A DNA stretch of 64,000 nucleotides from an uncultured bacterium (lineage in GTDB: Bacteria; Zixibacteria; MSB-5A5; UBA10806; 4484-95). Below the pieces are notes generated by a model, which worked only from the letters and a program-made list of their open reading frames with translations, was not told where the DNA came from and ran no database searches. The translations under genes were made by a program, and so were the position numbers. Shown here piece by piece: positions 4,545-58,781 of this stretch. The stretch lies in the NCBI GenBank assembly GCA_965603725.1, contig CBFDEC010000007.1, positions 44,273 through 108,272 on the forward strand. Direction: 5' to 3'. Every line of letters begins with the position of its first letter. Within the stretch, counting starts at the first letter, position 1.

Positions 4545-4885
4545 CCTTTATTTTAATAGATATAATTGTTGATAAAAAGTACTGGCGTAAAGGAAATCCC
4601 ATGATTTCCATTTACAACAAAGGTCAATAAAAATTCGTCTAAACACTTGATATCAGCAAACGAATTTCGTATCCTACTTTGATGGTCAGGCAATTGTAGA
4701 TGATTAAATCTGTCCAATGGAGGGTATGCAGACAATAATAAAATCTGCTTCACAATATCGATCATTCAAGAAAGATTAGATGAAGAAATTTTTTAAGTTT
4801 TACTCATGTTTGTGACATTTGGAAAACTAAAGGTCATGGAAAGAATGTAAGTTTATAAATTATTGAAACAAAACAAGGAGTGGTA

Positions 4886-5743
4886 ATGGAGATTAAGAAA
4901 GTTGGTATTTGCGGATGCGGGCTTATGGGCTCAGGTATAGCCGAAATAGCGTCCAAGGCCGGTATGGATGTTATTATTCGCGAGGTAAATGATAATTTTT
5001 TGAAAAAGGGAATGGGTCGAATCGATAAGTCTCTTTCTCGCGCGGTCAGCAAAGGCAAGCTTGACGAGACGGGTAAAAAAGCAGTCCTGGATAAAATCAA
5101 AGGGACAACCAGCGTTAATGATCTGGCTGACTGTGATATAATCGTCGAGGCTATAATCGAAAATCTCGGGGAGAAGATTAAGCTTTACAAAGAGCTCGAT
5201 TCTATTGCTAAAAAAGACGCGATCTTCGCTTCCAATACTTCGTCGTTATCGATAACGGAAATGGGAGCATCGACTAACCGCGCCGATAAGTTCTGCGGTT
5301 TACATTTTTTCAATCCAGTGCCGGTTATGAAGCTTGTTGAGGTCGTTAAGACTGTGGCCACCTCAGACGCTGCTTTCGAGGCGGCTAAAGCTTTCGGCGA
5401 GAAGCTGGGGAAGGTTGTGGTATCATGCAGCGATTCGCCGGGCTTCGTAGTCAACCGTCTTTTGGTGCCATACCTGCTTGATGCTATCCGGGCTCTTGAG
5501 GCCGGCGTGGCAAGCAAAGAGGATATCGATAACGGGATGAAGCTTGGCTGCGGTTATCCGATGGGACCGCTTGAATTGACTGATTTTGTCGGCCTGGACA
5601 CGACCTACTATATCGCCGAAATTCTTTTCGATGAGTTCAAAGACCATCATTATGCCTCGCCTCCTCTTTTGAAGGCAATGGTTAAAGCCGGTTATCTTGG
5701 GCGTAAAGCTGGCCGCGGTTTTTATGATTATGCAAAGAAGTAG
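4886..5743 (+). CDS. hbd: 3-hydroxybutyryl-CoA dehydrogenase
   Basis: N-terminal GICGCGLMGSGIAEI NAD-binding motif and HFFNPVPVMKLVEV. AAGGAG RBS 5 nt before the ATG at 4886; the track start at 4880 is a GTG. Confidence 0.85.
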   Translation: MEIKKVGICGCGLMGSGIAEIASKAGMDVIIREVNDNFLKKGMGRIDKSLSRAVSKGKLDETGKKAVLDKIKGTTSVNDLADCDIIVEAIIENLGEKIKLYKELDSIAKKDAIFASNTSSLSITEMGASTNRADKFCGLHFFNPVPVMKLVEVVKTVATSDAAFEAAKAFGEKLGKVVVSCSDSPGFVVNRLLVPYLLDAIRALEAGVASKEDIDNGMKLGCGYPMGPLELTDFVGLDTTYYIAEILFDEFKDHHYASPPLLKAMVKAGYLGRKAGRGFYDYAKK

Positions 5744-5752
5744 GTAAGAGTT

Positions 5753-6535
5753 ATGGAATATAAAAATATTAAATTTGAAAAAGACGGTGCTGTCGCAACT
5801 GTTACAATTGACCGTCCAAAAGTATTGAACGCCTTAAACGATGAAACGATCGCCGAACTCGATCATTGCTTCACATCTATTGCCGACGATAGCTCGATAT
5901 TGTGTGTCATCCTAACCGGCGGCGGAGAAAAATCGTTCATAGCCGGAGCCGATATCGGCGAACTGGCGGTCTGTGATGTGATCTCCGGCCGGGCTAAATG
6001 CGATCGCGGGCAATCACTGCTGTTTAAAATCGAGAATATCCCTCAGCCCGTTATTGCGGCTATCAACGGTTTTGCTCTTGGCGGCGGATGCGAATTTGCT
6101 ATGGCCTGCGACATTCGTTTAGCCTCGGAAAAGGCGAAAATCGGACAGCCTGAAGTCAGCCTCGGCATCATTCCCGGGTATGGCGGCACCCAGCGGCTGG
6201 CTCGCCTTGTCGGCCGCGGCAAAGCCAAGCAGATGATACTCACCGGTGATTTTATCAACGCCGCCGAGGCGTATCGCATCGGGCTGGTAGATGAGGTCTA
6301 TCCGCCGGATGAGCTTATGGCAAAAGCTAAAGAGATGGCCGGTAAAATCGTATCAAAAGGACCGCTGGCTATAAAAGCCGCCAAGGAAGCGATAAACCTT
6401 GGCCTCGATGTTGATATCAAATCAGGTTGTGAACATGAAGCGGTTTTATTCGCCGGTATCTGTGCTTCCGAGGATAAAACTGAAGGCACAAGTGCATTTT
6501 TAGAAAAACGCAAGGCGGAATTTAAAGGGAAGTAG
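5753..6535 (+). CDS. crt: enoyl-CoA hydratase (crotonase)
   Basis: Crotonase-fold motifs FIAGADI, AAINGFALGGGCEFAMACDIR and GIIPGYGGTQRL. Confidence 0.85.
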   Translation: MEYKNIKFEKDGAVATVTIDRPKVLNALNDETIAELDHCFTSIADDSSILCVILTGGGEKSFIAGADIGELAVCDVISGRAKCDRGQSLLFKIENIPQPVIAAINGFALGGGCEFAMACDIRLASEKAKIGQPEVSLGIIPGYGGTQRLARLVGRGKAKQMILTGDFINAAEAYRIGLVDEVYPPDELMAKAKEMAGKIVSKGPLAIKAAKEAINLGLDVDIKSGCEHEAVLFAGICASEDKTEGTSAFLEKRKAEFKGK

Positions 6536-6546
6536 TTATATAGACA

Positions 6547-6574
6547 GGGGCAAAGGAAGCCTTTGCCCCTTTTA
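6547..6574 (+). terminator. intrinsic terminator: 10-bp perfect stem ggggcaaagg/cctttgcccc followed by a TTTT run
   Basis: Read directly: perfect inverted repeat 6547-6556/6560-6569, then tttt. It lies between the crt stop and the methylase start. Confidence 0.55.
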
Positions 6575-6583
6575 GAATTAAAT

Positions 6584-9310
6584 ATGAATAGAGAACTAAA
6601 TCTAAATGCCAAAAGCATTCATGAGGCGATTGAATTACAGGTAAAAAAAGAAGGATTTAAGCCCAAACCTGTTAAACCGCTTGTAGCGCCTGTTTTAGCC
6701 AAGCCTCATACTGCAGTCTATAAAATGCATCGTTATTATGCAAGAAGACCTCATAATGTTTTCGCTAAATTGATTGAGCATTATACAAATCCAGGAGATA
6801 TTGTCTTGGATCCGTTTTGCGGCGGAGGAGTTACAGTATTTGAGGGATTGAAATTACGACGTAGAGTCATTGGGATTGATATAAATCCGTTAGCCACCTG
6901 GATAACTAAAGTTGAAGTTGAACCGGTGGATTTTGAAATCTTGGAAGAATTGTATAATGAGTGGCTCAAATTAATTGAGAAAAATATACCAAAGTTATTT
7001 AAAGCTAAATGTACAGAATGCGGAAAATTTGGCATTGCTGAATGGTATGAATGGTCGAATGTAGTAGTTTGTCCCAACTGTGAGGAAAATGTAATATTAG
7101 GAAGAACCAAAAAAATAAGGCCCGGATTATTTGAATGCAATAATAAACAATGTAAAACCCGCATTCAGCCAAATAAATGTGAAAGAAAACCGGATATTAT
7201 ATTAACGGTTATGATAGATTGTAAAAATTGTAAAAAAGTTATAAAAAGAGAATCTATCCCGGATGATATAAAAAGATATAAAAAGATATTAAAAGATGAA
7301 AAACAATACATCAAAAAAGAAAAAATCAAAATACCAAATGAAAAATTTCCAGATATGGATCGTGCCAGAGACGATAATATTTTCGGCAAAGGTATTAAAT
7401 ATTTTAAAGATATGATGACTGTCAGACAACGTATTTCATTAGGCTTAATAAAAAGATATCTTCCCCGGAATAAAGAAGCAAATGAGATAGATGCATTATA
7501 CCATGTTTTCTCTGCTTCTTTACGGTATGTAAACAAGTTTGTGTTTCAAAGTTCAAATTGGCAAAGCGGCAAACCTATTGAGTGGGCCGGGCATAATTAT
7601 TGGATGCCTTTTTGCTATTTTGAATTGAATCCATTAAATCCAATTAAGAAAAAATATAAGGCACTAATAAACGGCAAAATAGAGCAGGAAAAATTTATTG
7701 GAGAATACTGCAAATTTCCAAAATCGAGAAAACCCTGGGATGAATTAGAAAATGGTTTAACCTGTTGGATATTGACTCAATCAAGCCATGATATCAAATT
7801 ACCTGACGAATCAGTGGATGCGATTATTACTGACCCTCCATTTGGAGGTAATGTTCAATATGGCGAGTTGTCAGATTTCTATTTAGTATGGCTTAAAGAG
7901 TTCTTAGGTTTGAAAAATCTTTCTGATAAATCAATGGAGGCCATTGAAACGCGTAATCAAGGTTTTAAAGAGGCAAAAGATAGAGAATTTTATGAAGAGA
8001 TGCTTTATTTAATATTTAAAGAATGCAGAAGAGTCATCAAACCAGATGGCTGGATGGTCTTAACGTTTCACAATAGAGACATAGGTGTTTGGATGTCTTT
8101 GCATAGAGCCGCATTAAGGGCTGGTTTCAGACTTCCTTTGGAAAACGAATGTTCTAATCGAGGAATGGTTTATCAGCCTCCTGTGCAAAATTATACTCAA
8201 ACTATTCATCAACGGGCGGCCGGTTCTATGCTGGGTGATTTTATATTATCTTTTAAGCCCGCAGCTCCCCCTGTTCAATTAGAAGCAATTAAAGCACAAT
8301 TGACATTGAAAGAAGAAAAAGAACTTCAAGATAAGGCAGAGGAAATCATAAGATATCATGGCGGAGCTGATGACACAACATTGATGACCGGTCTTATTCC
8401 ATATTTGCACGAGGCATCATTACTGCATCGTATCGGTAAATATGATTTGAATATATTACTGGAGAATGGACCTTTCAAATTCCTATCTAAAGAAAAAAAA
8501 TGGTTCATGGAGGACATGGTAGAACCAACTGGCTCATTAAAACCTTTGAATATGATCGATGCTGAAGTGTTTGTCCAAAATCTTATCCATAGTTATTTAT
8601 TTGAACATAAGCAGGCAACGATGGATGAGCTTTTAGTCGTCATTTATGAAAATCTTGTTAACTCTCACCGGCCTCAGATTAGCACAATAGATAAAGTTGT
8701 AAATAAATATTGTAAGAAAAAGAAAGTAAAAGGCCAAAAACGTGAACTATATATTTGGAATCCTAAGGTGAAAACTCCTGAACAGATTGAAAAAGCATTG
8801 TCAACACAGATTCCCCTGGGTTTTGATACTGCCATTGCATTGGATCATAATAATATAATTAAAATCATCTCAGAATCAGCAAACAATGCCGGTTATAATG
8901 TTCATGTCGGTAAAACAGAACAAAGAAAATCCCCGACATTAAAAGCTTTAAGCCTGGAATTGTCAGGTTTTGAATTGGGATTGCCCCCTGAAGTTTTCAA
9001 ATTAATTCAAGAAATTGATATTATAATATTGAAAGGTTCTAATATCATAGCCGCTGTTGAGGTTGCTACTACTATTTCAACTTTTAACAAGGCAGTTAAC
9101 GATAGATTTAGAAATTTACTTACAATTGCTCCAAATTTGGATATTAGATTAAGTGTAATTGTCTCTGATAATAATTTTGAAAAAGCACATGAAGAACTAT
9201 ATACGCCCGCTAATATTAAATCCAGGTTGTCAGAAAAAGTTAAATTATTTAAAACAAGTAAAATCATGGATAAAGATTTCTTAAATATGATTTTAAGTAA
9301 AAATACATGA
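6584..9310 (+). CDS. DUF1156/COG1743-type Zn-ribbon-containing putative DNA (N6-adenine/N4-cytosine) methyltransferase, orphan
   Basis: HRYYARRP, DIVLDPFCGGGVTVFEGLKLRRRVIGIDINPLA, Zn ribbons CTECG..CPNCEEN and CNNKQC..CKNCKK, and the DPPF motif ITDPPFGGNVQYGELSDFYLVWLK. About 30% GC versus about 50% in the flanking genes. No SD sequence. The track ORF at 6563 uses TTG inside the terminator, so ATG 6584 is preferred. Confidence 0.6.
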   Translation: MNRELNLNAKSIHEAIELQVKKEGFKPKPVKPLVAPVLAKPHTAVYKMHRYYARRPHNVFAKLIEHYTNPGDIVLDPFCGGGVTVFEGLKLRRRVIGIDINPLATWITKVEVEPVDFEILEELYNEWLKLIEKNIPKLFKAKCTECGKFGIAEWYEWSNVVVCPNCEENVILGRTKKIRPGLFECNNKQCKTRIQPNKCERKPDIILTVMIDCKNCKKVIKRESIPDDIKRYKKILKDEKQYIKKEKIKIPNEKFPDMDRARDDNIFGKGIKYFKDMMTVRQRISLGLIKRYLPRNKEANEIDALYHVFSASLRYVNKFVFQSSNWQSGKPIEWAGHNYWMPFCYFELNPLNPIKKKYKALINGKIEQEKFIGEYCKFPKSRKPWDELENGLTCWILTQSSHDIKLPDESVDAIITDPPFGGNVQYGELSDFYLVWLKEFLGLKNLSDKSMEAIETRNQGFKEAKDREFYEEMLYLIFKECRRVIKPDGWMVLTFHNRDIGVWMSLHRAALRAGFRLPLENECSNRGMVYQPPVQNYTQTIHQRAAGSMLGDFILSFKPAAPPVQLEAIKAQLTLKEEKELQDKAEEIIRYHGGADDTTLMTGLIPYLHEASLLHRIGKYDLNILLENGPFKFLSKEKKWFMEDMVEPTGSLKPLNMIDAEVFVQNLIHSYLFEHKQATMDELLVVIYENLVNSHRPQISTIDKVVNKYCKKKKVKGQKRELYIWNPKVKTPEQIEKALSTQIPLGFDTAIALDHNNIIKIISESANNAGYNVHVGKTEQRKSPTLKALSLELSGFELGLPPEVFKLIQEIDIIILKGSNIIAAVEVATTISTFNKAVNDRFRNLLTIAPNLDIRLSVIVSDNNFEKAHEELYTPANIKSRLSEKVKLFKTSKIMDKDFLNMILSKNT

Positions 9311-9327
9311 TTTAAACAGGAGAACGA

Positions 9328-10473
9328 ATGAATTTCGAATTAACCGAAGACCAGCTGGCAGTTCAGGAGGTAGCCAGAGGGTTTACTGAAAAGAAACTGA
9401 AACCCAGGGCTGAGGAGTTTGACGCCGAATCCAAGATGGACAGCGGTTTATTGAAAGAAATGGGCGAACTGGGCCTGATGGGGATTACTCTCCCAGAAAA
9501 GTACGGCGGCGGTGAAATGGATACGATATCCTATATGGTAGCATCGGAGGAGCTGGCTAAAGGCTGCGCCTCTCATGCAGCTGTTTTAGGGTTGCATAAC
9601 TCTCTCTACGGCTATCCGGTTGTCGAATTTGGAACAGAAGAACAAAAGCAAAAATATCTTCCCGGCATCTGCAGCGGAGAACAGGTAGGCGCCTTTGCAC
9701 TATCTGAACCCGGCGCTGGTTCCGATGCCGCGGCCGTTGCTACTACTTGCAAAAAAAAGGACGACGGCTATGTGCTTAACGGCACAAAAATATTTATTAC
9801 CATGGGCGCTGTGGCGGACAGCGTTATAGTATTCGCAACCTCTAAAAAAGGTTCCGGTCCCAAAGGCATCACCGCTTTCATAGTCGATAAAGGCGCCGAG
9901 GGATTTGATATCGGCACAATCGAAAAGAAAATGGGACTTAAGGCGTCACCCACGACCGAATTAATATTCAATGACTGTTTTGTTCCTAAAGAGAATATGC
10001 TTGGCGTGGAAGGGAAAGGTTTCCGGGTGGCGATGTCTACCCTGGATGGCGGCAGGATCAGTTGTGGAGCGATGGCGGTTGGTCTGGCTCAGGCTGCTTT
10101 TGAAATTGCCTTGAAATATTCGAAGGAACGCGAGCAGTTCGGCAAACCGATCTCAGCGTTTCAGGCTATTCAGTTTCACCTGGCGGATATGTCTATTATG
10201 ATAGAAAACGCCCGGCTTTCGGTCTACCGGGCAGCCTGGATGAAAGATAAAGGAATGCCCTATACATTGCAGGCGGCCCAGGCTAAAGTTTACGCCTCGG
10301 AAATTTCTACTTTAGTGACTCATAAAGCGATTCAGGTTCTTGGCGGTTATGGATATATCAGGGATTACCAGGTCGAAAGGATGTACCGTGACGCCCGCGT
10401 AACCGAGCTTTTCGAGGGGACATCGGAGGTGCAAAGGCTGATTATCGCCAGAAACCTTCTCAAAGGAAAATAG
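9328..10473 (+). CDS. bcd: acyl-CoA dehydrogenase (butyryl-CoA dehydrogenase-like)
   Basis: ACAD motifs GAFALSEPGAGSDA, YASE and a C-terminal QxxGGxGY-type region. RBS AGGAGAA upstream. Confidence 0.85.
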   Translation: MNFELTEDQLAVQEVARGFTEKKLKPRAEEFDAESKMDSGLLKEMGELGLMGITLPEKYGGGEMDTISYMVASEELAKGCASHAAVLGLHNSLYGYPVVEFGTEEQKQKYLPGICSGEQVGAFALSEPGAGSDAAAVATTCKKKDDGYVLNGTKIFITMGAVADSVIVFATSKKGSGPKGITAFIVDKGAEGFDIGTIEKKMGLKASPTTELIFNDCFVPKENMLGVEGKGFRVAMSTLDGGRISCGAMAVGLAQAAFEIALKYSKEREQFGKPISAFQAIQFHLADMSIMIENARLSVYRAAWMKDKGMPYTLQAAQAKVYASEISTLVTHKAIQVLGGYGYIRDYQVERMYRDARVTELFEGTSEVQRLIIARNLLKGK

Positions 10474-10655
10474 AAAAGGAGTTTTATAAGGAGAATAAGA
10501 GGTTGTAGTAATAAATGAATCTTGATTGTGATTCTCTGAAAAGTCATTGCGAGCATCTGACCCGTAAGGCGAGAGATTTGAAAAACAAACAAAATAGCAA
10601 TGTAAGCCCGGCCGCAGGACAGGCCGTCAAGGTCTTGTGGATTTTCAACCTGCCC

Positions 10656-10677
10656 GGACAGACTGAAAGTCTGTCCT
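10656..10677. other. perfect 9-bp stem / GAAA tetraloop hairpin (ggacagact-gaaa-agtctgtcc) in the 390-bp bcd-korG intergenic region
   Basis: Read directly. No T-run follows, so it is not a canonical terminator. Confidence 0.4.
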
Positions 10678-10863
10678 ACTAAAGCTTGCGATCTATATGT
10701 CTTCGCATTGGTTTACCCAAATCGATTTGTTTCTTAAGAGTGAAACGAAACTCCGGGACGCTTCCAAACATTCTAAGAGTTTGCATGATTGATTTGTCAT
10801 CCCGCTGTTTCCTCACGATGACTGAGAATTATATACAGCCTCATAGGCTTTTCTGACAGTATT

Positions 10864-11409
10864 ATGAAAGAGATCACGTTTTTTGGCAGGGGCGGACAGG
10901 GCGCTGTAGTTGCCTCTGAAATGCTTGCCGACGCTTATTTCCATGAGGGTTACCAGGTTCAGAGTTTTCCATCTTTTGGCGTTGAACGGCGCGGGGCGCC
11001 GGTTATGGCGTTCTTACGAGTCGATAAGGAGTTCATATATCTCAGAAGCATGATATACAAAATTGATTTCGGCGTGATCCTGGCCCCTGATATAGTTAAT
11101 GCGCCAATCTTTAAACCAACATTAAAAGCCGAGACAGTGATCTTGATAAATTCCCGAGAAAAGTTGCCTCAGCTTGATGGAATTAGAGCTTCTTATGTTG
11201 ATGCCACCGGCATCGCCTTAGAATATGGTCTGGGGTCAAAGGCTCAGCCGCTGGTCAATACCGCAATGCTTGGAGCATTTGCTAAAATATCGGGCGATCT
11301 GAAACTGGACAACCTGCTGGAGGCAGTCAAAGGCAGCGTGCCGCAAAAAACTGATATGAACATAAAAGCTGTAATCAAAGCATATGAATCGGTAATAGGT
11401 TTTGAGTAA
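10864..11409 (+). CDS. 2-oxoacid:ferredoxin oxidoreductase gamma subunit (set 1)
   Basis: N-terminus ITFFGRGGQGAVVASEMLADA..GYQVQSFPSFGVERRGAPV is typical of PorG/KorC. Confidence 0.75.
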   Translation: MKEITFFGRGGQGAVVASEMLADAYFHEGYQVQSFPSFGVERRGAPVMAFLRVDKEFIYLRSMIYKIDFGVILAPDIVNAPIFKPTLKAETVILINSREKLPQLDGIRASYVDATGIALEYGLGSKAQPLVNTAMLGAFAKISGDLKLDNLLEAVKGSVPQKTDMNIKAVIKAYESVIGFE

Positions 11410-13045
11410 ATTAATCGTTTTTAATTCGGTCGATGAGATGCCGGAGATGGCGGTTGCCGGATCGCCAATGGACTGGAATAAAACCGGTTCCTGGCGATCG
11501 TCCACTCCTGTTCACAGGGACAAGACCCCGCCATGCAATTTCAACTGCCCTGCCGGTGAGGATATACGCGGTTACATAGATTTAATAAAGAAAAATCAGC
11601 TTAGCGATGCTTTCAGCCTTCTAACCAAGACTAATCCGCTTCCGGCTGTGTGCGGGCGGGTATGTTTTCATCCCTGCCAGGCTAACTGTAATCGTCATGA
11701 TTTCGATATCGAAGTACAGGTGCGATTGCTTGAAAAATTCATAGGCGATTGGGGAATCGAAAACAAATTAAAAACAGAACTTCCTGATTTAAGTCACCAT
11801 AAGATAGCGGTCATCGGAGCAGGTCCGGCAGGATTGGCCGCCGCGTATTTCCTTCGCAGGAAAGGCCTGGCAGTAACACTCTATGATGAAAACGGTTTGC
11901 CGGGCGGTATTCTGCATTACGGCATACCATCATACCGGCTCGATAAAGATATCCTGCAAACTGAGCTTGAAAGACTAATGGAAGGAATCGAGTTTAAATC
12001 GAACATGAAATTCGGTTCCGATTTTGGTATCGGTGATTTACAAAATTTCGACTCGGTCTTCCTGGCAACCGGCGCACATCTGTCAAAAAAAATGAATATT
12101 AATGGAGAGAAACTCACCGGAGTAGAACCCGGACTTGATTTTTTAAAAAATGTGAACTCCGGCGTTGCTGTTGACCTCAAAGGGAAAAAAGCTGTTGTTA
12201 TTGGCGGCGGCAACACGGCCTGTGATGTTGCCCGCACCGCTTATCGTCTCGGCGCCGATGTTCACCTTGTTTACCGGCGGACCCAAAAAGAAATGCCTGC
12301 TTTCGCCGAAGAGGTTGAACAGCTTAAATCCGAACCAATTAAAATAGAGTTTCTGGCGGAACCCGAGAGAATTGAAAGGCAAAACGATGGCAGGTTGAAA
12401 GTATTATTCACAAAAATGAAACTTGGAGAACCCGACCAATCCGGCCGTTCAAGACCTGTTCCAATCAAGGGTTCGGGTTTCGATATGATCGTGGATAAAA
12501 TCTATGCCGCAATCGGTGAGGACCCCGACCTGTCATTCTTTCCGAAGGTGGTTATTTCAAACAGCGGCGAATTTGATTTTGCCGGAGTAGAAAAAAGTCT
12601 GCGCGAAAAGCTGTTCGTCGGCGGAGATATTTTGCCTAATCCCAGGACAGTTCCTCACGCGGTTGCCACAGGAAGGTTGACCGCTGATAAAATTGAGGCG
12701 TTTCTAAAGGGAGAACTGCTAGATTCTCAAAAGAATATCGCCGAGGTTGCTGGTCCTGATGACGTTAATTATATCTATTTCACAAAGGTCAATGCAGCAA
12801 AATGGCAGAAAAATCTAACCATCAACGGCAGTATTCCCGATATAGAAAAGGCGATTGAGGAAGCCAGCCGCTGTTTTTCCTGCGGTGTGTGCAATCAATG
12901 TGACAACTGCTACAATTTCTGCCCCGACCTGGCCGTGATTAAATCCTCGGATGGGTATCAGATCAATCTCGACTACTGTAAGGGGTGCGGTATATGCTCC
13001 AATGAATGTCCTCGCGGCGCTTTGATTATGGAGGCGAAGAGTTGA
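11402..13045 (+). CDS. GltD-family NAD(P)H-binding FAD/FeS oxidoreductase with a C-terminal 2x[4Fe-4S] ferredoxin domain (OFOR-associated)
   Basis: CNFNCPAGEDIRGYI..CGRVCFHPCQANC, IAVIGAGPAGLAAAYFL, VVIGGGNTACDVARTA, and C-terminal CFSCGVCNQCDNC..CKGCGICSNECP. Track start is TTG; an ATG at 11438 or 11447 is possible. Confidence 0.7.
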   Translation: MSKLIVFNSVDEMPEMAVAGSPMDWNKTGSWRSSTPVHRDKTPPCNFNCPAGEDIRGYIDLIKKNQLSDAFSLLTKTNPLPAVCGRVCFHPCQANCNRHDFDIEVQVRLLEKFIGDWGIENKLKTELPDLSHHKIAVIGAGPAGLAAAYFLRRKGLAVTLYDENGLPGGILHYGIPSYRLDKDILQTELERLMEGIEFKSNMKFGSDFGIGDLQNFDSVFLATGAHLSKKMNINGEKLTGVEPGLDFLKNVNSGVAVDLKGKKAVVIGGGNTACDVARTAYRLGADVHLVYRRTQKEMPAFAEEVEQLKSEPIKIEFLAEPERIERQNDGRLKVLFTKMKLGEPDQSGRSRPVPIKGSGFDMIVDKIYAAIGEDPDLSFFPKVVISNSGEFDFAGVEKSLREKLFVGGDILPNPRTVPHAVATGRLTADKIEAFLKGELLDSQKNIAEVAGPDDVNYIYFTKVNAAKWQKNLTINGSIPDIEKAIEEASRCFSCGVCNQCDNCYNFCPDLAVIKSSDGYQINLDYCKGCGICSNECPRGALIMEAKS

Positions 13046-13053
13046 AGAAGGTG

Positions 13054-14202
13054 ATGTCGGGTAATGAGGCGGCCTCTCTGGCGGTAAAGCTTTCCAGGGT
13101 TCAGGTGATATCGGCTTATCCCATAACCCCGCAGACGGTGATTGCCGAGAAACTATCTGAACTCTGCGGTTCGGAGGAACTTGATGCCAGGTTCGTTAAG
13201 GTGGAATCGGAACATTCAGCCATGGCGACTTTGATCGGGGCGGCCTCCACCGGCGTTCGCACTTTTACTGCTACCTCGGCTCAGGGACTTGCGTTGATGC
13301 ATGAGCTGCTGTTCTGGGCATCAGGCGCTAGATTGCCTGTTGTCATGGTTAATGTTAACCGGGCCATGGCGGCTCCCTGGACTATCTGGTGTGACCAGAC
13401 CGATTCTGTCGCCCAGCGCGATACCGGTTGGATGCAGTTTTATTGCTGGTCCAACCAGGAAATATTAGACAGCGTCATCTGCTCATTTAAGATAGCCGAA
13501 AAACTGTTGATTCCCTGCATGGTCTGTTTCGACGGTTTCTTTATATCGCATACCTATGAAGCCGTGGATATCCCCGATCAGAAGGATGTAGATAAATTCC
13601 TGCCATCAAGAAAAGCAGAAACTTACATTGATACGAAAAACCCGCAAACGTTTTCGGGCGGTACTTTGCCGAATAATTTCATGGAGTTCCGCTATAAACT
13701 TCAAAAAGCATTCGAACAGGCGCCTGAAGTGATAGATAAAACCTACGGCGAGTTTAACAATATATTCGGCCGCTCATACAAAGATATCGAACCGTATTTT
13801 TTTAATGATGCCGAAACCGTGTTAATGGCTTCCGGCTCTGCGGCATCAACGGTATATTATACGGCGAGAAAATTACGGGAGTCGGGAAAGAAAGTTGGCT
13901 TCCTGAGATTAAGGCAATTGCGGCCGTTTCCCGAGAAATCGTTTTTATCGTTTATGAAGCCGGATGTTAAATACGGTGTACTGGACCGTAATCTTTCACC
14001 GGGCACAGGCGGAGTGTTCACCCAGGAGATAAGAGGAGTTTTAAACCGTCACGGCCGGCAGAATCGGGTCAGCGAATTTGTCGCCGGTCTCGGTGGACGA
14101 GATATAACCGAACAACATATCATGGAGATATTTAATAAGCTTGCGAATGGCGAAATTAATACATCGGGAATAAACTGGATCGGTGTGAAGGGAAAACAAT
14201 AA
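13054..14202 (+). CDS. 2-oxoacid:ferredoxin oxidoreductase alpha subunit (set 1)
   Basis: PorA/KorA-like protein (MSGNEAASLAVK.., AYPITPQT). ATG at 13054 follows AGAAGG; the track ORF begins upstream at 13006 inside the previous gene. Confidence 0.75.
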   Translation: MSGNEAASLAVKLSRVQVISAYPITPQTVIAEKLSELCGSEELDARFVKVESEHSAMATLIGAASTGVRTFTATSAQGLALMHELLFWASGARLPVVMVNVNRAMAAPWTIWCDQTDSVAQRDTGWMQFYCWSNQEILDSVICSFKIAEKLLIPCMVCFDGFFISHTYEAVDIPDQKDVDKFLPSRKAETYIDTKNPQTFSGGTLPNNFMEFRYKLQKAFEQAPEVIDKTYGEFNNIFGRSYKDIEPYFFNDAETVLMASGSAASTVYYTARKLRESGKKVGFLRLRQLRPFPEKSFLSFMKPDVKYGVLDRNLSPGTGGVFTQEIRGVLNRHGRQNRVSEFVAGLGGRDITEQHIMEIFNKLANGEINTSGINWIGVKGKQ

Positions 14203-14270
14203 GTAAATTTATTTAATAAGTTTTATCATTATGAGAATTACTTTCCAAAATCTAAGACCGGAGTTGACCT

Positions 14271-15185
14271 ATGAATGAAATGCCGGATTACGAGTTTTGC
14301 GCAAGTCATAGTTTTTACGGCCACATGGCCTGTCCCGGTTGCGGTGAAAAGATATTAATCAGGCATGTCCTGGAAGCTCTTGGTCCGGAAACTGTAATTA
14401 TTTGCCCTGCCGGCTGTGCCGCGGTTACTGACGGCGTCTTTCCCCATACTATTTCGCCGGTCCCGTTTTTGCATGTGCCGTTTGATGCGACTCCCTCCGC
14501 GGCGGCCGGTGTCCGCGCCGGTCTCGATATGTCGGGTCGTAAGGATGTGACAGTAATGGCCTGGGCCGGCGATGGAGCCACCTTCGATATCGGGATGGGG
14601 TCTCTTTCGGCTATTGCAGAAAGAAATGAGAATATTCTTTATGTTTGCTACGACAACGAAGCTTATATGAACACCGGCATCCAGCGCAGTTCGGCCACGC
14701 CTATCGGAAGCTGGACTACCACAACGCCGGAGGGGCGATTGAAATCCGAACCCAAGAAAAATATCGATTTCATCATGGCCTCACACAGGGCGCCCTATGT
14801 TGCCACCTGTTCGCCGGCGTTTATTGATGATCTGAAAATGAAAGTTACAAAAGCAAAAAATATGACCGGCTTAAGATTCCTTCATTTGTATTCCCCGTGT
14901 CCTCCAGGTTGGAAATCCGACCCCAAGGATAGCATCGCCATTTCCAGGCTGGCCGTGGAATGTAACCTGTTTCCTCTTTATGAAATTTACAACGGAGAAA
15001 AATATATACTGAATTATCAATCCCGGAGCCTTCCCGTTTCCGAGTACATAAAACTCCAGGGAAGATTCAGATATCTAAGCGACAGGGACAAAGAAATTCT
15101 TCAGTCCGAGGCTGATCAGTTCTACCGTACTCTGATATCGCTTCAAAATATCAAACCGCAATCAAATATTGCCGGGGAGGAATGA
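14271..15185 (+). CDS. 2-oxoacid:ferredoxin oxidoreductase beta subunit, TPP-binding (set 1)
   Basis: CPGCGEKI, GDGATFDIG (TPP GDG motif) and NEAYMNTG. Confidence 0.8.
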   Translation: MNEMPDYEFCASHSFYGHMACPGCGEKILIRHVLEALGPETVIICPAGCAAVTDGVFPHTISPVPFLHVPFDATPSAAAGVRAGLDMSGRKDVTVMAWAGDGATFDIGMGSLSAIAERNENILYVCYDNEAYMNTGIQRSSATPIGSWTTTTPEGRLKSEPKKNIDFIMASHRAPYVATCSPAFIDDLKMKVTKAKNMTGLRFLHLYSPCPPGWKSDPKDSIAISRLAVECNLFPLYEIYNGEKYILNYQSRSLPVSEYIKLQGRFRYLSDRDKEILQSEADQFYRTLISLQNIKPQSNIAGEE

Positions 15186-16495
15186 TGAGTAAGAAGCCAT
15201 CCGAAAAATCCTTGATATATGACTGGAATAAAAGCAAGGGATTCAGGTTTCGCCATAAGCCAACCCTCCAAATTGATGACGAAACTTTAAGGGACGGTCT
15301 TCAGTCTCCTTCTGTTACAGATCCCACCATCAAAGAAAAAATCGAATTGTTGGAATTGATGGAAGAACTTAAGATAGATTCCGCTGATATTGGTCTTCCC
15401 GGTTCCGGCCCAAGAGCACAAAGCGATATCTTGGCTATAGCCAAGCATATCGAGAAAAACAAAATGAAAATCCAACCCAACTGCGCCGTCCGAACAGTTA
15501 AAGCGGATATTACGCCCCTTGTCGCTATTTCACAGAAAGTAGGCTATCCGATTGAAGCAAGCACTTTTATTGGCTCATCGCCTATCAGACAGTATGCCGA
15601 GGATTGGACGCTTGACAAAATGATCAAGCTGACCGAGGAAGCGGTAAGCTATGCCGTGGATAATGGTTTACCTGTAATGTATGTTACAGAGGATACCACA
15701 CGAGCCGACCCCAAGACATTGAAAAAGCTATACACAACCGCAATTAATGCAGGCGCCAGGCGTATATGTGCTTGCGATACAGTTGGCCATGCCACAACTA
15801 TAGGTGTTTACTATCTGATGAGATATATAATGAAACTGGTAAAAACAATCGATCCCGAGGTTAAAGTCGATTGGCATGGTCATTCGGATCGTTCTCTGGC
15901 GCTGCCCAATACTATGGCCGCTATTGCACAGGGAGTTGACCGGGTACATGCCACCGCTTTGGGTATCGGCGAAAGAGTTGGTAATACCCCGATTGATCTC
16001 TTGCTGGTTAATCTTAATCTTGAAGGTATATACAATCGTGATCTTACCCAGCTTTCGCGGTATTGCCATTTCGTCTCGGAAATATGCGATGTAGAGATTC
16101 CACCGAATTATCCGGTTATGGGTCGGGATGCTTTCAGAACGGCCACAGGTGTTCATGCCGCCGCCATAATTAAAGCCCAGAACAAAGGTGATGACTGGCT
16201 TGCCGACCGTGTTTATTCAGGTGTACCGGCAGGAATGGTTGGCTTAAAGCAGATTATTGAGATCGGGTTTATGTCGGGAGTTTCGAATATAGTCTACTAT
16301 CTGAAAACACGTGGCATTAAGCCGGATAAAGAAATCGTCGATGAGATATTCCGGACAGCAAAACAGCATAATAGAGTTCTTACCGATGAAGAAATCGAAG
16401 AGACAATCAAATTCCAAACGCATTTGTCCAATGAGTTGCCGCTTGATACTATTAAGCAATGGGATGAAGAGATCAAACCAAAGAAAAAGAAATAA
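15182..16495 (+). CDS. LeuA/CimA-family (DRE-TIM metallolyase) 2-oxoacid:acetyl-CoA condensing enzyme homologue, short form with no regulatory domain. It carries a variant RDGLQ motif.
   Basis: TLRDGLQSPS where LeuA has RDGEQ, plus HGHSD and GIGERVGN motifs. 437 aa. It is immediately upstream of leuC/leuD/leuB. Confidence 0.6.
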   Translation: MMSKKPSEKSLIYDWNKSKGFRFRHKPTLQIDDETLRDGLQSPSVTDPTIKEKIELLELMEELKIDSADIGLPGSGPRAQSDILAIAKHIEKNKMKIQPNCAVRTVKADITPLVAISQKVGYPIEASTFIGSSPIRQYAEDWTLDKMIKLTEEAVSYAVDNGLPVMYVTEDTTRADPKTLKKLYTTAINAGARRICACDTVGHATTIGVYYLMRYIMKLVKTIDPEVKVDWHGHSDRSLALPNTMAAIAQGVDRVHATALGIGERVGNTPIDLLLVNLNLEGIYNRDLTQLSRYCHFVSEICDVEIPPNYPVMGRDAFRTATGVHAAAIIKAQNKGDDWLADRVYSGVPAGMVGLKQIIEIGFMSGVSNIVYYLKTRGIKPDKEIVDEIFRTAKQHNRVLTDEEIEETIKFQTHLSNELPLDTIKQWDEEIKPKKKK

Positions 16496-31708: not shown

Positions 31709-34228
31709 CTACTTCACATACTTTACTTTTCTTGAATATTTTTTGAGTAGGTCAGAAACCGAGAGTTTATATGTATCAACTAACTTTTGAATGTGAGGGA
31801 TTGATAAATCCTTTAAATTAATCGATTCAAATGCCTTAAAGAATTCTCTAATACATTTAATAAACTTCTTCAACTCATCTTCTGTCATAACCTCTACTTC
31901 ACAAGTAAATGCTGCCGGTTTCGAAACTTTATAAGTTGGATGAATCATCACTCGCTTAACTTGCATATTTTCATAGTTTTTTTCAAACCAAGCACTTGAA
32001 CTATTCATTTGTTCCGTTTCTCGTTTATTAATTTCTGACCTTCGTATCTCCACTTCATTTTTACATTCCCATAATAAATATTGTGCATCTTCCAATGCCC
32101 ATAAATTATCCGGGCCTTCTTTCCACACCTTATCAGGTCTTTCACCCGCAAAACCAAGTGCTCTGCTGAGTTCATCCAATGCTTGCTCAAATTTGTCAGC
32201 TTTAGCACCAAAAACCAAAGAACCTAAAATATCTGTAAGTGCTATATCCAGATGAGCATAGTCTTCGAAATTTCTAATCCATTCAGCAATTCTCTCCATT
32301 CTTTTTTGGCTAATAACACTCAATTTTACTACTGTTACACCGAAAGGTGGCTTCAACAGAAATCGGTTTTTTTTGTGAGCCGAAACCTGAAGCTTCTGTG
32401 ATTCCGCTCGATTAGCCCGATAGTTATATCTTGCCATCTCTTGTAAATACCAACCTTTTTCGGCATCATCGTGCTTAGCTGTGTCAAGGAATGCTTGTAT
32501 TTGGTTTGTTGCACCTGAATAATCCCCGCTTTGGTACGATTGTTCAGCGTTTAATTCAACGGTATAAATATTTAAAATATTTTTGTTTGCACCAGAAGGC
32601 TTGACACTGGCCATTTGTTGAGCATAGAAAGCTTTCCAGTCTCCATTACGATTCAAACATTGTTTAAGTAATGCAATAAATATTTTAAATGGTTTTTCAC
32701 CGTCATCTAAATCCAGTTTTGCCATTTCTGCGATTTCAACACCAATTCCAATTTGAGTCGACATCTGAGGTGAAAGGAATTTTCGAGATTGCCTGTCACG
32801 TACAAGCCTTGTAATATCTGGTCCCGTAATAATAATAACAGAATAATCTTTTTCACCACGAACACTTCTACCCAAACCTTGTTCAACAGTTCTTATCGTT
32901 CGCATTAGTATTGCTTCATTATCGGGTCGGCAAAATTCCTCATAAAGGTCGGTAAGGTTTTCAGAATAAGGTTTGCTATCGAAAATCAGAATTCGACAAG
33001 TATCATCTGGAAGATCAATGCCGTCATAACGATTTGCTAAAACTATTGTATGTTCGTTTTTTCCTTCTCGTAGATTTTGAATAATATTAGTAAGAGTATC
33101 TGTTGTAGCTACCACGGCTCCATAAGCTTCCCAATCTTTCGTACGTAGAAAACTTGGAGTAAATGCGACAACACCAAATTGCTTCTTTGATGTAAATGAG
33201 CCAAAGTACTTTACAATCTCCTCTCTATTTAAATCTTCGTGAATAAGTGAGGGCAATAGAACCATTTTTTCACCAGACCAACTTTCTTTTGAGTAAGTAA
33301 GTGGATTAACTATAGTATCTGGTAAGAGTTGCAGTCCTTTTACTAAGAATGAATCATCGGTAACTGTTGCTGACATAAATATTCTATGTTCTGCTTCCCA
33401 ATAACTACCAAAAGCATATAGTGGTGGAATATAGGGTTCGATTTCGATAGCAGCTCCAGAAATTACACATTTGCAATGACTTAGTAGATCTTTCAAGAGC
33501 GGCCACGCAAATTTAATCGATTGCTGATCTTTGGCTGCAGATAAGATCTTCGCAATTTCGGTTTCTCGATCGAACCAAGCCCAATAAGGAACAGGAAGAA
33601 AGGAATCCCTTTTATTGTTTTGGATATCTGAAAAAGTTCCTACACCTTGTTGTTCCAATTCATTTTCAAAGAGTGACCTCAACTTATGATATGTTTCTTC
33701 TTCTTTGTGAATGCGAATTCTGCATGCTTCACGAATTGAATCCGAGCAAGCGTGCGCATCATCCATTAAAAGTGAGTTAATACTAATGGACTTTGTATAC
33801 AGTCCAAATTTTGTTAATCCATTAAAAAGTTTTTGAATGGACGTTACCAAGATTTTATTACTATCTATAAAATCGTCTGGTAATTCAGGTTCTGCTTTGC
33901 ATGTAGATATTCCAAATTGCTTTGCCTGTTCACAAGTTCGATCAATTAGAAAATTATTTGGGCACAAATATACGGCAGGTCCTTTTGAATCATTCAATCG
34001 TGATTGAAGCATCAATAGACCAATCAGGGTTTTACCTTGACCAGTATGTAATTTTACAATAATATCACGATTATTTTGATGATAAAAATACCATTCTTTT
34101 AGTACAGATTCCTGGGCAGGTCGAAGAGGTCCTTTGTCGTGGGCACGATCCAGATCATCATAGAGAATTAAGGGATCAATTGGCTTCTTTACGTTCTTTC
34201 CTACCATTCGCTTCTTAAAGTCGACCAT
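31709..34228 (-). CDS. standalone SF2 (DEAH-like) helicase fused to a C-terminal PD-(D/E)xK nuclease domain (Type III restriction Res-like / Hna-like helicase-nuclease)
   Basis: Helicase motif I LHTGQGKT, Ia [42 protein letters not shown]-terminal [23 protein letters not shown] is a PD..(D/E)xK signature. AT-rich codon usage unlike its neighbours. No mod methyltransferase is adjacent. Confidence 0.7.
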
Positions 34229-39539: not shown

Positions 39540-39660
39540 GAATATTCCTTACCTGGCAAAGTGTCCCTTCTGTTTTTCAGGACAATTTAACATTAAACTT
39601 GACCCGGTATCGCAACTTAATATATTCATGTAAACGCTTAAGATATAGGCTGAATTGCAA

Positions 39661-55971: not shown

Positions 55972-56724
55972 TTGGGTATAAGAAAAATCTTATTGAAATA
56001 TTATTGGTGGATCCAGGGATTTATGATACCTGGATTAAAACACTCACAATCCATATATAACAACATTCTAAAAAACTATGTCAAACACGATATATATTGG
56101 TTGGATTTAGGTTGCGGACATCGAATATTACCTTTCTGGCTTTACGAAGAAGAAAAAAATTTAGTTAATATAAGCCAGCTTGTTGTAGGTATCGATTATA
56201 ATCTAAGTTCTTTAAAAAACCATAAAAGTATTTACATAAAGATAAGAGGTGACATTACTAAATTACCATTTAAGAAAAAATATTTTGATTTAGTAACGGC
56301 GAATATGGTTGTTGAACATTTAAATGAACCTGATATTCAGTTTAAAGAAATTTCAAGAATTTTGAAGCCTAAAGGTATATTCATTTTGCATACACCTAAT
56401 ATTTTTAATTTGTGGATTATTATTGCCAGGTTGGTGCCAGATAAAATTAAATTAGTATTTATTAAACTATTGGAGGGAAGAGAAGAAAAAGATATTTTTG
56501 ATGTACATTATAAAGTAAATTCAAGAAAAAAAATATTAAATGTGGCTTCAAAATCAGGATTTCAAGTACTTAAGCTTAAAATGATAGTATCCACTCCCGT
56601 ATTATCTATAATTCCGCCTCTCGTGATATTTGAACTAATATGGATAAGGATTTTAATGATGACACCATTTAAGTTGTTTAGATCAAATATCATAGCAATA
56701 TTGATAAATAATGATTCTTTTTGA
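55972..56724 (+). CDS. class I SAM-dependent methyltransferase
   Basis: LDLGCGHRIL (motif I) and LVTANMVVEHLNEP. AT-rich. Confidence 0.6.
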   Translation: MGIRKILLKYYWWIQGFMIPGLKHSQSIYNNILKNYVKHDIYWLDLGCGHRILPFWLYEEEKNLVNISQLVVGIDYNLSSLKNHKSIYIKIRGDITKLPFKKKYFDLVTANMVVEHLNEPDIQFKEISRILKPKGIFILHTPNIFNLWIIIARLVPDKIKLVFIKLLEGREEKDIFDVHYKVNSRKKILNVASKSGFQVLKLKMIVSTPVLSIIPPLVIFELIWIRILMMTPFKLFRSNIIAILINNDSF

Positions 56725-57224
56725 CAGGTATATTTTGTAACGCTTTTTACAATTTTGAGTTTGACATGTCAGAAAAATGTCCTTTAGTTTGAATGTTTAT
56801 ATAATATAGAAAAGTAAATTCATTATAAAGATCAAAATCAAGTGTCTTTGAGTATATCGAGATATTTTATAACCGGGCAAAGAAGACATTCAGCATTAGG
56901 CTATAAATCGCTGGTTGACTTTCTAAACGAATCAAATTACATTAATTGTGTGTCCGTTAAAACGGGGTAAGATCATTCTAGCGCTGTTTCAATTAAGGTG
57001 TATATAAAATTCAAACAGGTAATTGGCATTTGCCTAAGGTGAACTCGTATGCTGACTGGTGCACGAGGACGTACACCTGCCGCAATTATATATTATTGTA
57101 GGTAGATCTAAATCAAATCCAGAAATATTAATAATGTCCTTGAAAAATCATGATTGGCATATTATTATAAATGAAATGCTAAAAATGATTGCAGATAGAA
57201 TTCAATAACCCGAATTTTTAAAAG

Positions 57225-58679: not shown

Positions 58680-58781
58680 AAATAGTTGACTTTGGACATC
58701 CCTCTTGACGGGCGATCGTCGATTATAAGACATCTATAGAGTACGCTCTTTTCCAGCATGAGCTTCTCAGACAAACTCCTA

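What the first reader, a model, noticed from the sequence alone, without database searches (positions are those of the whole stretch)
6547..9327. AT-rich orphan DUF1156/COG1743 Zn-ribbon DNA methylase inserted between crt and bcd, directly behind a strong terminator
The hbd-crt-bcd butyryl-CoA module is normally contiguous. Here a 2.75-kb gene at about 30% GC, against about 50% for its neighbours, sits between crt and bcd. Its product has the hallmarks of the COG1743 adenine-specific methylase family: H-x3-ARRP, DPFCGGG..IDINP (SAM-binding motif), two CxxC zinc ribbons, and DPPF followed by LSDFYLVWLK. These methylases normally occur in three-gene cassettes with a DUF499 ATPase and DUF3780, noted in defence-island surveys. 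Neither partner is present in this window, so it is a solitary copy. It begins 10 nt after a perfect 10-bp-stem terminator and has no Shine-Dalgarno, whereas native genes here use AAGGAG. Its roughly 370-aa C-terminal region has no recognisable motifs.
Basis: partly seen in the sequence, partly recalled or inferred. Interest (0 to 1): 0.7.

Follow-up and report, generated by a model that had tools for sequence, protein, structure and literature searches.

The report
Solitary methylase fused to a restriction nuclease
The AT-rich gene after crt is not a stray piece of a multi-gene defence cassette; it most likely encodes a one-protein restriction-modification enzyme (DNA methylase plus a C-terminal restriction-type nuclease) that moves between Zixibacteria genomes as a bare gene.

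Summary
An intact 908-aa ORF (6584-9310, +) at 33.7% GC (GC3 0.27) lies between crt and an acyl-CoA dehydrogenase, behind a strong hairpin.

The N-terminal 560 aa are a permuted N6_N4 amino-methyltransferase with a roughly 260-aa insert carrying two conserved 4-Cys zinc ribbons. This part resembles BREX type-3 PglXI, but it is not a DUF1156 family member: Pfam gives no hit and the NCBIfam score is 59.5 against a cutoff of 1000.

More than 100 full-length homologues (38-67% identity) are solitary in 12 different contexts. The best reading is a single-chain R-M enzyme.

Relatives show clean empty sites: crt is followed by a small ORF, not by bcd. Sister genomes differ in presence or absence. The three crt-locus alleles fall in different clades, so the gene is a mobile bare ORF. 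Nuclease activity is inferred, not shown.

The parts
5753..6535 (+). crt (enoyl-CoA hydratase), the conserved left flank of the insertion site
   Evidence: Pfam ECH_1 1.1e-70. It is 87-89% identical to crt in L011, L012, L013 and L015.
6547..6573 (+). GC-rich hairpin (10-11 bp stem, 3-nt loop) plus TTTT. It is terminator-like, belongs to the host crt 3' end by composition, and lies just upstream of the inserted gene.
   Evidence: Fold -20.4 kcal/mol, z -4.4. It was not called by the consensus scan because there are only 4 T. It is absent from L011, L013 and L015; L012 has a different hairpin.
6584..9310 (+). 908-aa gene: methyltransferase, Zn-ribbon TRD, winged helices and nuclease, a predicted single-chain R-M enzyme. 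The whole ORF, and only the ORF, is low in GC.
6707..6889 (+). Methyltransferase motifs X and I (aa 42-102: HTAVYKMHRYYARRP ... DPFCGGGVT ... IDINP), the SAM-binding half of the permuted N6_N4 domain
   Evidence: Pfam N6_N4_Mtase aa 49-102 aligns to profile positions 160-213 of 221. Invariant residues are listed. PDB sequence hits to beta-class MTases cover this stretch only.
6989..7768 (+). About 260-aa insert in the Rossmann fold (aa 136-395) with two 4-Cys zinc ribbons. It is the putative target-recognition domain and the most variable part of the protein.
   Evidence: Cys conservation. The beta-rich insert is modelled at pLDDT above 90. Identity between alleles is 45-61% here against 74-87% in the core. 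The TRD insert with a 4C Zn finger is described for PglXI and BR-MTases.
7769..8263 (+). Catalytic half of the methyltransferase (aa 396-560) with motif IV TDPPFGG and LSDFYLVWLK
8264..8818 (+). Linker region (aa 561-745) with helical and winged-helix domains, presumed DNA-binding or spacer
8819..9307 (+). C-terminal PD-(D/E)xK restriction-endonuclease-fold domain (aa 746-908, NmeDI_C-like). Conserved residues are H755, H774-x-G776-x-T-E779-Q780-x-K782, D812, E826, R841/R843 and N877.
9328..10473 (+). Acyl-CoA dehydrogenase (bcd), the right flank, 17 nt after the stop and with its own AGGAG. It is the first gene of a 7-kb block (to 16495) that the closest relatives lack at this position.
   Evidence: Pfam. 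Junction sequence. The block is absent from L011, L013 and L015, which have the small ORF and DUF1189 instead.

Best explanation
The gene encodes a self-contained, single-polypeptide restriction-modification enzyme.

The N-terminal 560 aa form an N6-adenine (less likely N4-cytosine) DNA methyltransferase. Its Rossmann fold is interrupted by a zinc-ribbon target-recognition insert of the PglXI type. This part would read a specific DNA motif and methylate host DNA. Two winged-helix domains then tether a C-terminal PD-(D/E)xK nuclease module of the NmeDI_C kind, which would cut unmethylated foreign DNA, probably at some distance from the recognition site.

Because modification and restriction sit in one ORF, the gene needs no partner. 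It behaves as a selfish, horizontally mobile bare ORF. It sits in short intergenic gaps, often immediately downstream of and co-oriented with a housekeeping gene, and may be expressed by read-through. It is gained, lost and replaced on a timescale shorter than the divergence of sister genomes.

Shown here: the domain folds and homologies, conservation of the candidate catalytic residues, solitary contexts, empty sites, polyphyly of the alleles, and low GC3.

Inferred: nuclease activity, the base and motif methylated, the mode of expression and the insertion mechanism.
For: Methyltransferase:
- Pfam N6_N4_Mtase 3.6e-21 in two permuted stretches.
- PADLOC PglXI 1.3e-50 and MTase_II 1.4e-40.
- Invariant FxGxG and DPPF motifs.

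Nuclease:
- C-terminal model at pLDDT 83.5.
- Distant full-length homologues carry Pfam NmeDI_C, and the window domain matches them at 1e-18 and 4e-22.
- D812 at the start of beta-2 and E826 in beta-3 are invariant in 58 sequences spanning 38-67% identity. H755, G776, E779, R841 and N877 are also invariant.
- A profile of this domain finds 809 cluster representatives. In the hits examined the domain sits towards the C-terminal end, fused to EVE, Mrr_N (both readers in modification-dependent restriction enzymes) or other N6_N4 methylases.
- NmeDI itself is a proven REase that cuts 12/7 nt on both sides of its site.

Solitary status: 12 contexts, all with different neighbours and none with a recurrent partner.

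Mobility:
- Empty sites exist in L013 and L015, with no remnants.
- The sister pairs (L011+, L013-) and (L012+, L015-) differ in presence.
- The crt-locus alleles fall in three clades with 90-100% bootstrap, each clade also holding an allele at another locus or of unexamined context.
- GC3 is below that of neighbours in 8 of 10 hosts.
- The TRD is mosaic, as known for Type IIG genes.
Against: - No activity data exist.
- The canonical Lys of the (D/E)xK triad is Ala828 in this subfamily (E-V-A). More distant members have E-x-E-K/R. The active site is therefore a variant or possibly inactive, and inactive REase folds used as DNA-binding modules are known.
- The window protein itself has no precomputed NmeDI_C hit, and that model is not in the local Pfam copy.
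- All known Type IIG fusions use class A (gamma-like) methylases. Those characterised (MmeI, BpuSI) also have an N-terminal nuclease. There is thus no characterised precedent for this arrangement.
- Partners elsewhere in the genome cannot be excluded from a 64-kb window.
Confidence: 0.6

Rival explanations
1. It is an orphan (solitary) DNA methyltransferase. It only methylates, for epigenetic regulation or as protection against others' restriction enzymes. The C-terminal REase-fold domain is a catalytically dead DNA-binding or oligomerisation module.
For: The methylase part is unambiguous. The canonical Lys is missing from E826-V-A828. Inactive REase domains exist in related defence proteins. 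CcrM-type methylases carry non-specific C-terminal DNA-binding domains (abstract of PMC6787082). Relatives on viral contigs lack the nuclease domain.
Against: The acidic residues at the classical catalytic positions (E779, D812, E826) are invariant across 58 sequences down to 38% identity. The same module is the C-terminal partner of EVE and Mrr_N reader domains, where a nuclease effector is expected. NmeDI is an active REase. The sporadic presence and absence and the low GC3 fit selfish R-M genes better than regulatory methylases, which tend to be conserved within a clade.
Confidence: 0.22
2. It is the methylase component of a multi-gene BREX-type-3 or DUF499 ('BREX-related') system whose ATPase and helicase partners lie outside the window.
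For: The best PADLOC hit is PglXI. The TRD insert with a 4-Cys Zn finger and C-terminal HTH-like domains is shared with PglXI and BR-MTases. There is a weak NCBIfam DUF1156_antiphage hit. The 34-37% relatives on viral contigs sit beside a second methylase and an Mrr-ResIII helicase-nuclease.
Against: In 12 contexts with 5-10 kb flanks none has DUF499, BrxC, PglZ, BrxHII or DUF3780, whereas those systems are operonic. Pfam DUF1156 is absent. The NCBIfam score is 17-fold below its cutoff. The PglXI match covers only aa 92-515. The fused nuclease replaces the need for a separate effector.
Confidence: 0.06
3. It is a homing-type selfish gene. The nuclease's main role is to cut empty target sites, such as the crt 3' intergenic region, so that the ORF is copied in by repair. 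The methylase protects occupied chromosomes.
For: The same intergenic site is occupied by alleles from three clades, and sister genomes differ in occupancy. The insert is essentially the bare ORF (about 21 nt, the ORF, then about 14 nt), with no repeats, integrase or tRNA.
Against: Family members sit at many unrelated sites: aroA, gyrB, valS, tldD and ribD. The junction sequences of window, L011 and L012 share no common motif. An ancestral insertion followed by losses and allele replacement through flanking homology explains the data without homing.
Confidence: 0.1

Closest known systems
BREX type-3 methyltransferase PglXI (BrxXI) and the DUF1156 'BREX-related' methyltransferases
   Same: Both have an amino-methyltransferase Rossmann core split by a roughly 250-aa TRD insert with a 4-Cys zinc finger, followed by HTH or winged-helix domains. 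PADLOC PglXI scores 1.3e-50, and the architecture is described in 10.1101/2025.10.09.681413.
   Different: The window gene stands alone, without the BrxC/DUF499 ATPase, PglZ or helicase. It lacks the DUF1156 N-terminal domain. It has two Zn clusters. It ends in a PD-(D/E)xK nuclease domain, which that survey does not mention (none of six search terms found).
Type IIG / IIC single-chain R-M enzymes (MmeI, BpuSI, Eco57I type)
   Same: One polypeptide is predicted to carry recognition, methylation and cleavage. The genes are solitary and mobile, and the TRD is allelically diverse and mosaic.
   Different: Known Type IIG enzymes have an N-terminal nuclease, a gamma-like (class A) methylase and a C-terminal TRD. 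Here the order is methylase (N6_N4 type, TRD inserted inside it), then winged helices, then a C-terminal nuclease.
R.NmeDI (Neisseria meningitidis Type II REase) and the Pfam NmeDI_C domain
   Same: The C-terminal domain belongs to the same homologous family. NmeDI cleaves at a fixed distance (12/7) outside its site, which suggests a cleavage module separable from recognition.
   Different: Here the module is fused to an amino-methylase. The window protein itself falls below the precomputed Pfam hit list.
NgoMIV / BsaWI / BstEII PD-(D/E)xK restriction endonucleases
   Different: Sequence identity is only 9-13%. The recognition parts are not shared, and the active-site Lys position differs.

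Membership tests
DUF1156 / COG1743 anti-phage methyltransferase (BR-MTase) | N-terminal DUF1156 helical domain (Pfam DUF1156; InterPro IPR009537) | tested here: not met
   No DUF1156 hit for the whole protein or for aa 1-140, even at E<=10.
DUF1156 / COG1743 anti-phage methyltransferase (BR-MTase) | NCBIfam NF042963 equivalog score at or above its cutoff (1000 bits) | tested here: not met
   59.5 bits, covering aa 227-516 only.
DUF1156 / COG1743 anti-phage methyltransferase (BR-MTase) | Operonic linkage with a DUF499 ATPase and DUF3780 or a helicase-nuclease | tested here: not met
   None among the window ORFs scanned (all of 449 aa or more plus the immediate neighbours). None in 12 homologue contexts. 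The rest of the genome was not seen.
DUF1156 / COG1743 anti-phage methyltransferase (BR-MTase) | Rossmann methylase with an inserted TRD bearing a 4-Cys Zn finger | tested here: met
   Insert at aa 136-395 with two conserved 4-Cys clusters. This feature is shared with PglXI, so it is not diagnostic.
BREX type-3 PglXI | Full-length match to the PglXI profile | tested here: inconclusive
   PADLOC PDLC02541 scores 1.3e-50, but only query aa 92-515 align, to profile positions 188-588 of 919.
BREX type-3 PglXI | Neighbouring BrxC, PglZ, BrxHII, BrxA and BrxF | tested here: not met
   Absent from the window ORFs scanned and from every inspected context (contexts as above).
N6_N4_Mtase (PF01555) DNA amino-methyltransferases | Pfam score above gathering threshold; motif I FxGxG and motif IV (D/S)PP(Y/F) | tested here: met
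   76.6 bits against 26.7. F78-C-G80-G81-G82 and D417-P-P-F are invariant or nearly so. The motif order is circularly permuted relative to the Pfam model (I before IV).
Type IIG / IIC single-chain R-M enzyme | Methyltransferase and endonuclease domains in one polypeptide | tested here: met
   Shown by fold and homology only.
Type IIG / IIC single-chain R-M enzyme | Demonstrated endonuclease activity against unmodified sites, protected by its own methylation | not testable with these tools
   Needs biochemistry or genetics.
Type IIG / IIC single-chain R-M enzyme | Canonical Type IIG layout: N-terminal PD-ExK nuclease, class A (gamma-like) methylase, C-terminal TRD | tested here: not met
   The nuclease is C-terminal, the methylase is N6_N4 type and the TRD is internal. 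Per, all REBASE Type IIG methylases are class A; the N-terminal nuclease layout is described for MmeI and BpuSI.
NmeDI_C (PF27126) nuclease domain | Significant match to the Pfam model | tested here: inconclusive
   The model is absent from the local Pfam copy. There is no precomputed hit for the identical protein P0001, but there are hits for homologues such as P0105 and P0119. The window domain matches those two at 1e-18 and 4e-22.
PD-(D/E)xK nuclease superfamily | [quoted passage not shown] | tested here: met
PD-(D/E)xK nuclease superfamily | Catalytic D ... (D/E)-x-K triad | tested here: inconclusive
   D812 and E826 are invariant and correctly placed. The K position is Ala828. Candidate substitutes are K782 (at least 90% conserved), K836 and R841.
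Rho-independent terminator (hairpin 6547-6573) | GC-rich stem-loop followed by a U-tract | tested here: inconclusive
   The stem is strong (-20.4 kcal/mol, z -4.4). The T-run is only 4 nt, below the scan's rule of 5 of 8.

The most novel reading that the evidence does not exclude
This may be an uncharacterised class of one-gene restriction-modification element. It would combine a PglXI-like methylase with an internal Zn-ribbon TRD, winged helices and a C-terminal NmeDI-type nuclease. In the most novel reading it propagates as a bare ORF and repeatedly re-colonises the same intergenic site downstream of conserved genes, using its own nuclease in a homing-like way. That would link BREX-type methylases, classical Type II nucleases and homing-endonuclease-style mobility.
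Probability: 0.12. Interest if true: 0.8.

Novelty: new variant of a known kind. Interest (0 to 1): 0.5.

Why it matters
If the nuclease is active, this is a compact R-M architecture different from every characterised single-chain enzyme. It pairs an N6_N4/PglXI-type methylase with a C-terminal nuclease.

It is widespread in poorly studied sediment phyla: Zixibacteria, Calditrichota, Ignavibacteria, TA06 and Edwardsbacteria.

It would give a minimal, experimentally tractable relative of the BREX type-3 methylase, whose recognition mode is unknown. It might also give new specificity-programmable cutters, since the Zn-ribbon TRD is mosaic and variable.

The locus further offers a clean natural example of gain, loss and allele replacement of a bare R-M ORF, with both filled and empty sites available.

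Tried and rejected
- Exact-sequence contig look-ups for the window protein and for P0001 found nothing.
- My first coordinates were off by one in frame.
- Foldseek of the full model against the PDB returned only generic methylase folds, so I modelled the C-terminus separately.
- Sequence searches of the C-terminus against PDB chains and the local Pfam copy were empty. PF27126 is not in that copy.
- The afdb50 fold library was unavailable.
It returned only two fairly close relatives (72% identity, and a partial 82% match), far fewer than the genome scan, and none of the 80 loci carried the methylase. It added nothing to the empty-site analysis.
- No flanking direct or inverted repeats, target duplication, tRNA or integrase was found. 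A transposon or integrative-element mechanism is therefore rejected.
- The Haloferax HVO_A0006 paper concerns N-terminal Type IIG nucleases and is not relevant.
- The idea that the missing Shine-Dalgarno marks the gene as foreign was dropped, because about half the window's genes lack one.
- The idea that the window hairpin is part of the cassette was dropped. It is GC-rich like the host, and it is absent upstream of the L011 and L012 copies.
Full report
**What is there**

The window holds an intact ORF on the + strand. The mechanical ORF starts at TTG 6563, but that codon lies inside a hairpin and all homologues begin MNREL. The start is therefore ATG 6584, giving 908 aa with a stop at 9308-9310.

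The gene is 33.7% GC with GC3 0.272. Its neighbours hbd, crt, bcd and leuC are 47-50% GC with GC3 0.49-0.52. The low-GC stretch coincides with the ORF and ends sharply at both ends.

Upstream lie hbd (4880-5743) and crt (5753-6535). Downstream, 17 nt after the stop, lies an acyl-CoA dehydrogenase (9328-10473).

Between crt and the ATG is a 10-11 bp GC-rich hairpin (6547-6569) followed by TTTT. It folds at -20.4 kcal/mol with z -4.4. The consensus scan did not score it as a terminator because the T-run is short.

There is no Shine-Dalgarno sequence, but about half of the window's genes lack one too.

**The methylase half**

Pfam N6_N4_Mtase matches in two stretches in permuted order (E 3.6e-21). 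Motif X-I (HRYYARRP...DPFCGGG) is at aa 49-102, and motif IV (TDPPFGG) is after aa 400.

The best defence-system profile is BREX PglXI (1.3e-50, aa 92-515 only), followed by generic Type II methylase profiles. A recent survey describes exactly this layout for PglXI and for the DUF1156 'BREX-related' methylases: a Rossmann core, a roughly 250-aa TRD insert with a 4-Cys zinc finger, then HTH-like domains.

The defining DUF1156 domain is nevertheless absent, with no Pfam hit even at E<=10. The NCBIfam DUF1156_antiphage equivalog scores 59.5 bits against a cutoff of 1000.

**The C-terminal 350 aa**

The region is conserved in length and sequence in more than 100 full-length homologues at 38-67% identity.

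The more distant full-length homologues carry a precomputed Pfam hit to PF27126, 'NmeDI_C'. The window's domain matches two of them in pairwise BLASTP, at 1e-18 (P0105) and 4e-22 (P0119). NmeDI is a biochemically proven Type II enzyme that cuts 12/7 nt on either side of RCCGGY.

[quoted passage not shown] D812 lies at the start of beta-2 and E826 in beta-3, and both are invariant. H755, G776, E779, R841 and N877 are invariant too. The canonical Lys is not conserved at position 828: it is Ala here, while distant members have E-x-E-K/R. The site is therefore a variant. This is the main uncertainty about activity.

A profile of this domain was searched against 1.84 billion cluster representatives. 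It found 809 proteins at E<=1e-3 and 183 at E<=1e-10, and in nearly all of the 150 listed hits the domain lies at or towards the C-terminal end. Sampled partners are EVE and Mrr_N (modified-DNA readers typical of Type IV restriction enzymes), shorter N6_N4 methylases, and TPR. This is the behaviour of a portable restriction-nuclease effector module.

**Solitary by design**

I inspected 12 contexts: the window, L001, L003/L011, L004-6, L007/8, L009/10, L012, L095, L096, L097, L098/99 and L100. The neighbours are unrelated housekeeping genes (crt, aroA, gyrB, tldD/pmbA, valS, ribD and others). None encodes a DUF499 or BrxC ATPase, DUF3780, PglZ or a helicase-nuclease.

In 8 of the 12 contexts the gene is co-oriented with, and 2-153 nt downstream of, the preceding gene.

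The window ORFs that were scanned (all of 449 aa or more, plus the immediate neighbours) include no such partner either. One subfamily (L009/L010) has an overlapping 818-aa ORF of unknown nature downstream.

The 34-37% relatives on viral contigs contain only the methylase part. They sit beside a second methylase and an Mrr-ResIII helicase-nuclease. In those loci restriction is presumably supplied in trans; in this family it is fused.

**An insertion, but not quite as described**

A crt-based scan of species-representative genomes identified the lineage as Zixibacteria. It gave four close relatives with crt 87-89% identical.
- L011 and L012 carry a homologue immediately after crt.
- L013 and L015 have crt, 70-95 nt of spacer, then a small basic ORF (MEEYS...LGAAYLDYCVRQGWL...), DUF1189 and leuC, with no methylase and no remnant of one.

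In L011 and L012 the gene sits exactly between crt and that small ORF. Comparison of L011 with its sister L013 bounds the insert at about 21 nt, the ORF, and about 14 nt, replacing about 10 nt, with no target duplication or terminal repeats.

In the window the small ORF and DUF1189 are missing. A 7-kb bcd-POR block (9328-16495) lies between the methylase and leuC instead. 'crt directly followed by bcd' is therefore not the ancestral state in this lineage.

**Turnover**

Flanking DNA groups L011 with L013 (86.8% identity) and L012 with L015 (79.8%), with the window outside both pairs. Each sister pair contains one filled and one empty site.

The crt-locus alleles are only 63-65% identical to each other. 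That is no closer than to alleles at other loci.

In a bootstrapped NJ tree they fall into three clades (contexts):
- window with P0003 (ribD locus), P0007 and P0009 (valS locus), 90% support;
- L012 with P0002, 100% support;
- L011 with P0014 (also at the crt locus) and P0012 (aroA locus), 94% support.

The Zn-ribbon insert is the most divergent region (45-61%) and shows a two-type mosaic pattern. This resembles the TRD allelism reported for Type IIG genes.

GC3 is below that of neighbours in 8 of 10 hosts, yet it rises in the GC-richest host (L095). This is what repeated horizontal turnover with partial amelioration would produce.

With synonymous sites near saturation between these genomes, a GC3 of 0.27 in the window copy argues for acquisition or replacement after the lineages split. 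This last step is an inference.

**Interpretation**

The most economical reading (confidence about 0.6) is a single-chain restriction-modification enzyme that spreads as a bare ORF.

It works like a Type IIG/IIC fusion but fails the canonical Type IIG layout. The characterised examples (MmeI, BpuSI) have an N-terminal nuclease and a C-terminal TRD, and all REBASE Type IIG methylases are reported to be class A.

I found no paper describing this architecture. REBASE and InterPro could not be consulted.

The rivals are:
- an orphan methylase with a dead REase-fold DNA-binding domain (about 0.22);
- a displaced component of a BREX-related cassette (about 0.06);
- a homing-type element (about 0.1).

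Nuclease activity, the methylated motif, the mode of expression and the insertion mechanism remain untested.

**Verdict**

It is wrong on family membership and on the nature of the C-terminus, and imprecise on the ancestral site.

This is a new variant of a known kind, of moderate interest.

Noticed in passing
window 31709-34228 (-): An 839-aa DinG-like helicase (ResIII/DEAD plus Helicase_C_2) in a low-GC stretch (0.36-0.39). It matches the PADLOC candidate single-gene defence system PDC-S28 end to end (1035.6 bits). It lies 22 kb from the methylase and is not a known partner of it.
   Followed up: partly
window 39655-41292 (+): A 545-aa ORF with no Pfam hit. Its N-terminal part matches PADLOC PDC-S62 (7.8e-18) and DpdE (1.4e-9).
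   Followed up: no
window 31000-64000, especially 56000-59000: The second half of the window is generally lower in GC (0.28-0.42) than the first half (0.45-0.50), so the methylase is not the only AT-rich region. The area contains asparagine-synthase-like, AMP-binding and beta-helix proteins, and several ORFs with no family hit.
   Followed up: partly
window 9328-16495: The block bcd, POR-gamma, a 547-aa Pyr_redox/Fer4 protein and the 398-, 304- and 437-aa ORFs is absent from this position in the closest relatives (L011, L013, L015). Those carry a small basic ORF plus DUF1189 instead. The crt-leuC interval is thus a variable region beyond the methylase itself.
   Followed up: partly
L013 6951-7190; L015 3356-3595; L011 13606-13845; L012 6606-: A conserved roughly 80-aa ORF (MEEYS..NPLALGAAYLDYCVRQGWLTK...RRRRRK) with an Arg-rich tail and no family assignment. 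It marks the right side of the insertion site in relatives and is missing from the window.
   Followed up: no
L009 10725-13181 and L010 10725-13181: In the NmeDI_C-annotated subfamily (P0105), an 818-aa ORF starts 1 nt after the methylase-nuclease stop. It has no Pfam or PADLOC hit and may be a subfamily-specific partner.
   Followed up: partly
L091 7983-14048; L094 7869-14593: On viral contigs, the 34-37% relatives of the methylase part lack the nuclease domain. They are followed by a second N6_N4 methylase and an Mrr_cat_2-ResIII helicase, an R-M-like three-gene layout. L094 also carries a family A DNA polymerase next to it.
   Followed up: partly
L095 523-8727: One family member sits 24 nt downstream of gyrB in the dnaA-dnaN-dciA-gyrB origin-region cluster of a high-GC Zixibacteria MAG. 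Its GC3 is 0.72, the most ameliorated copy seen.
   Followed up: no
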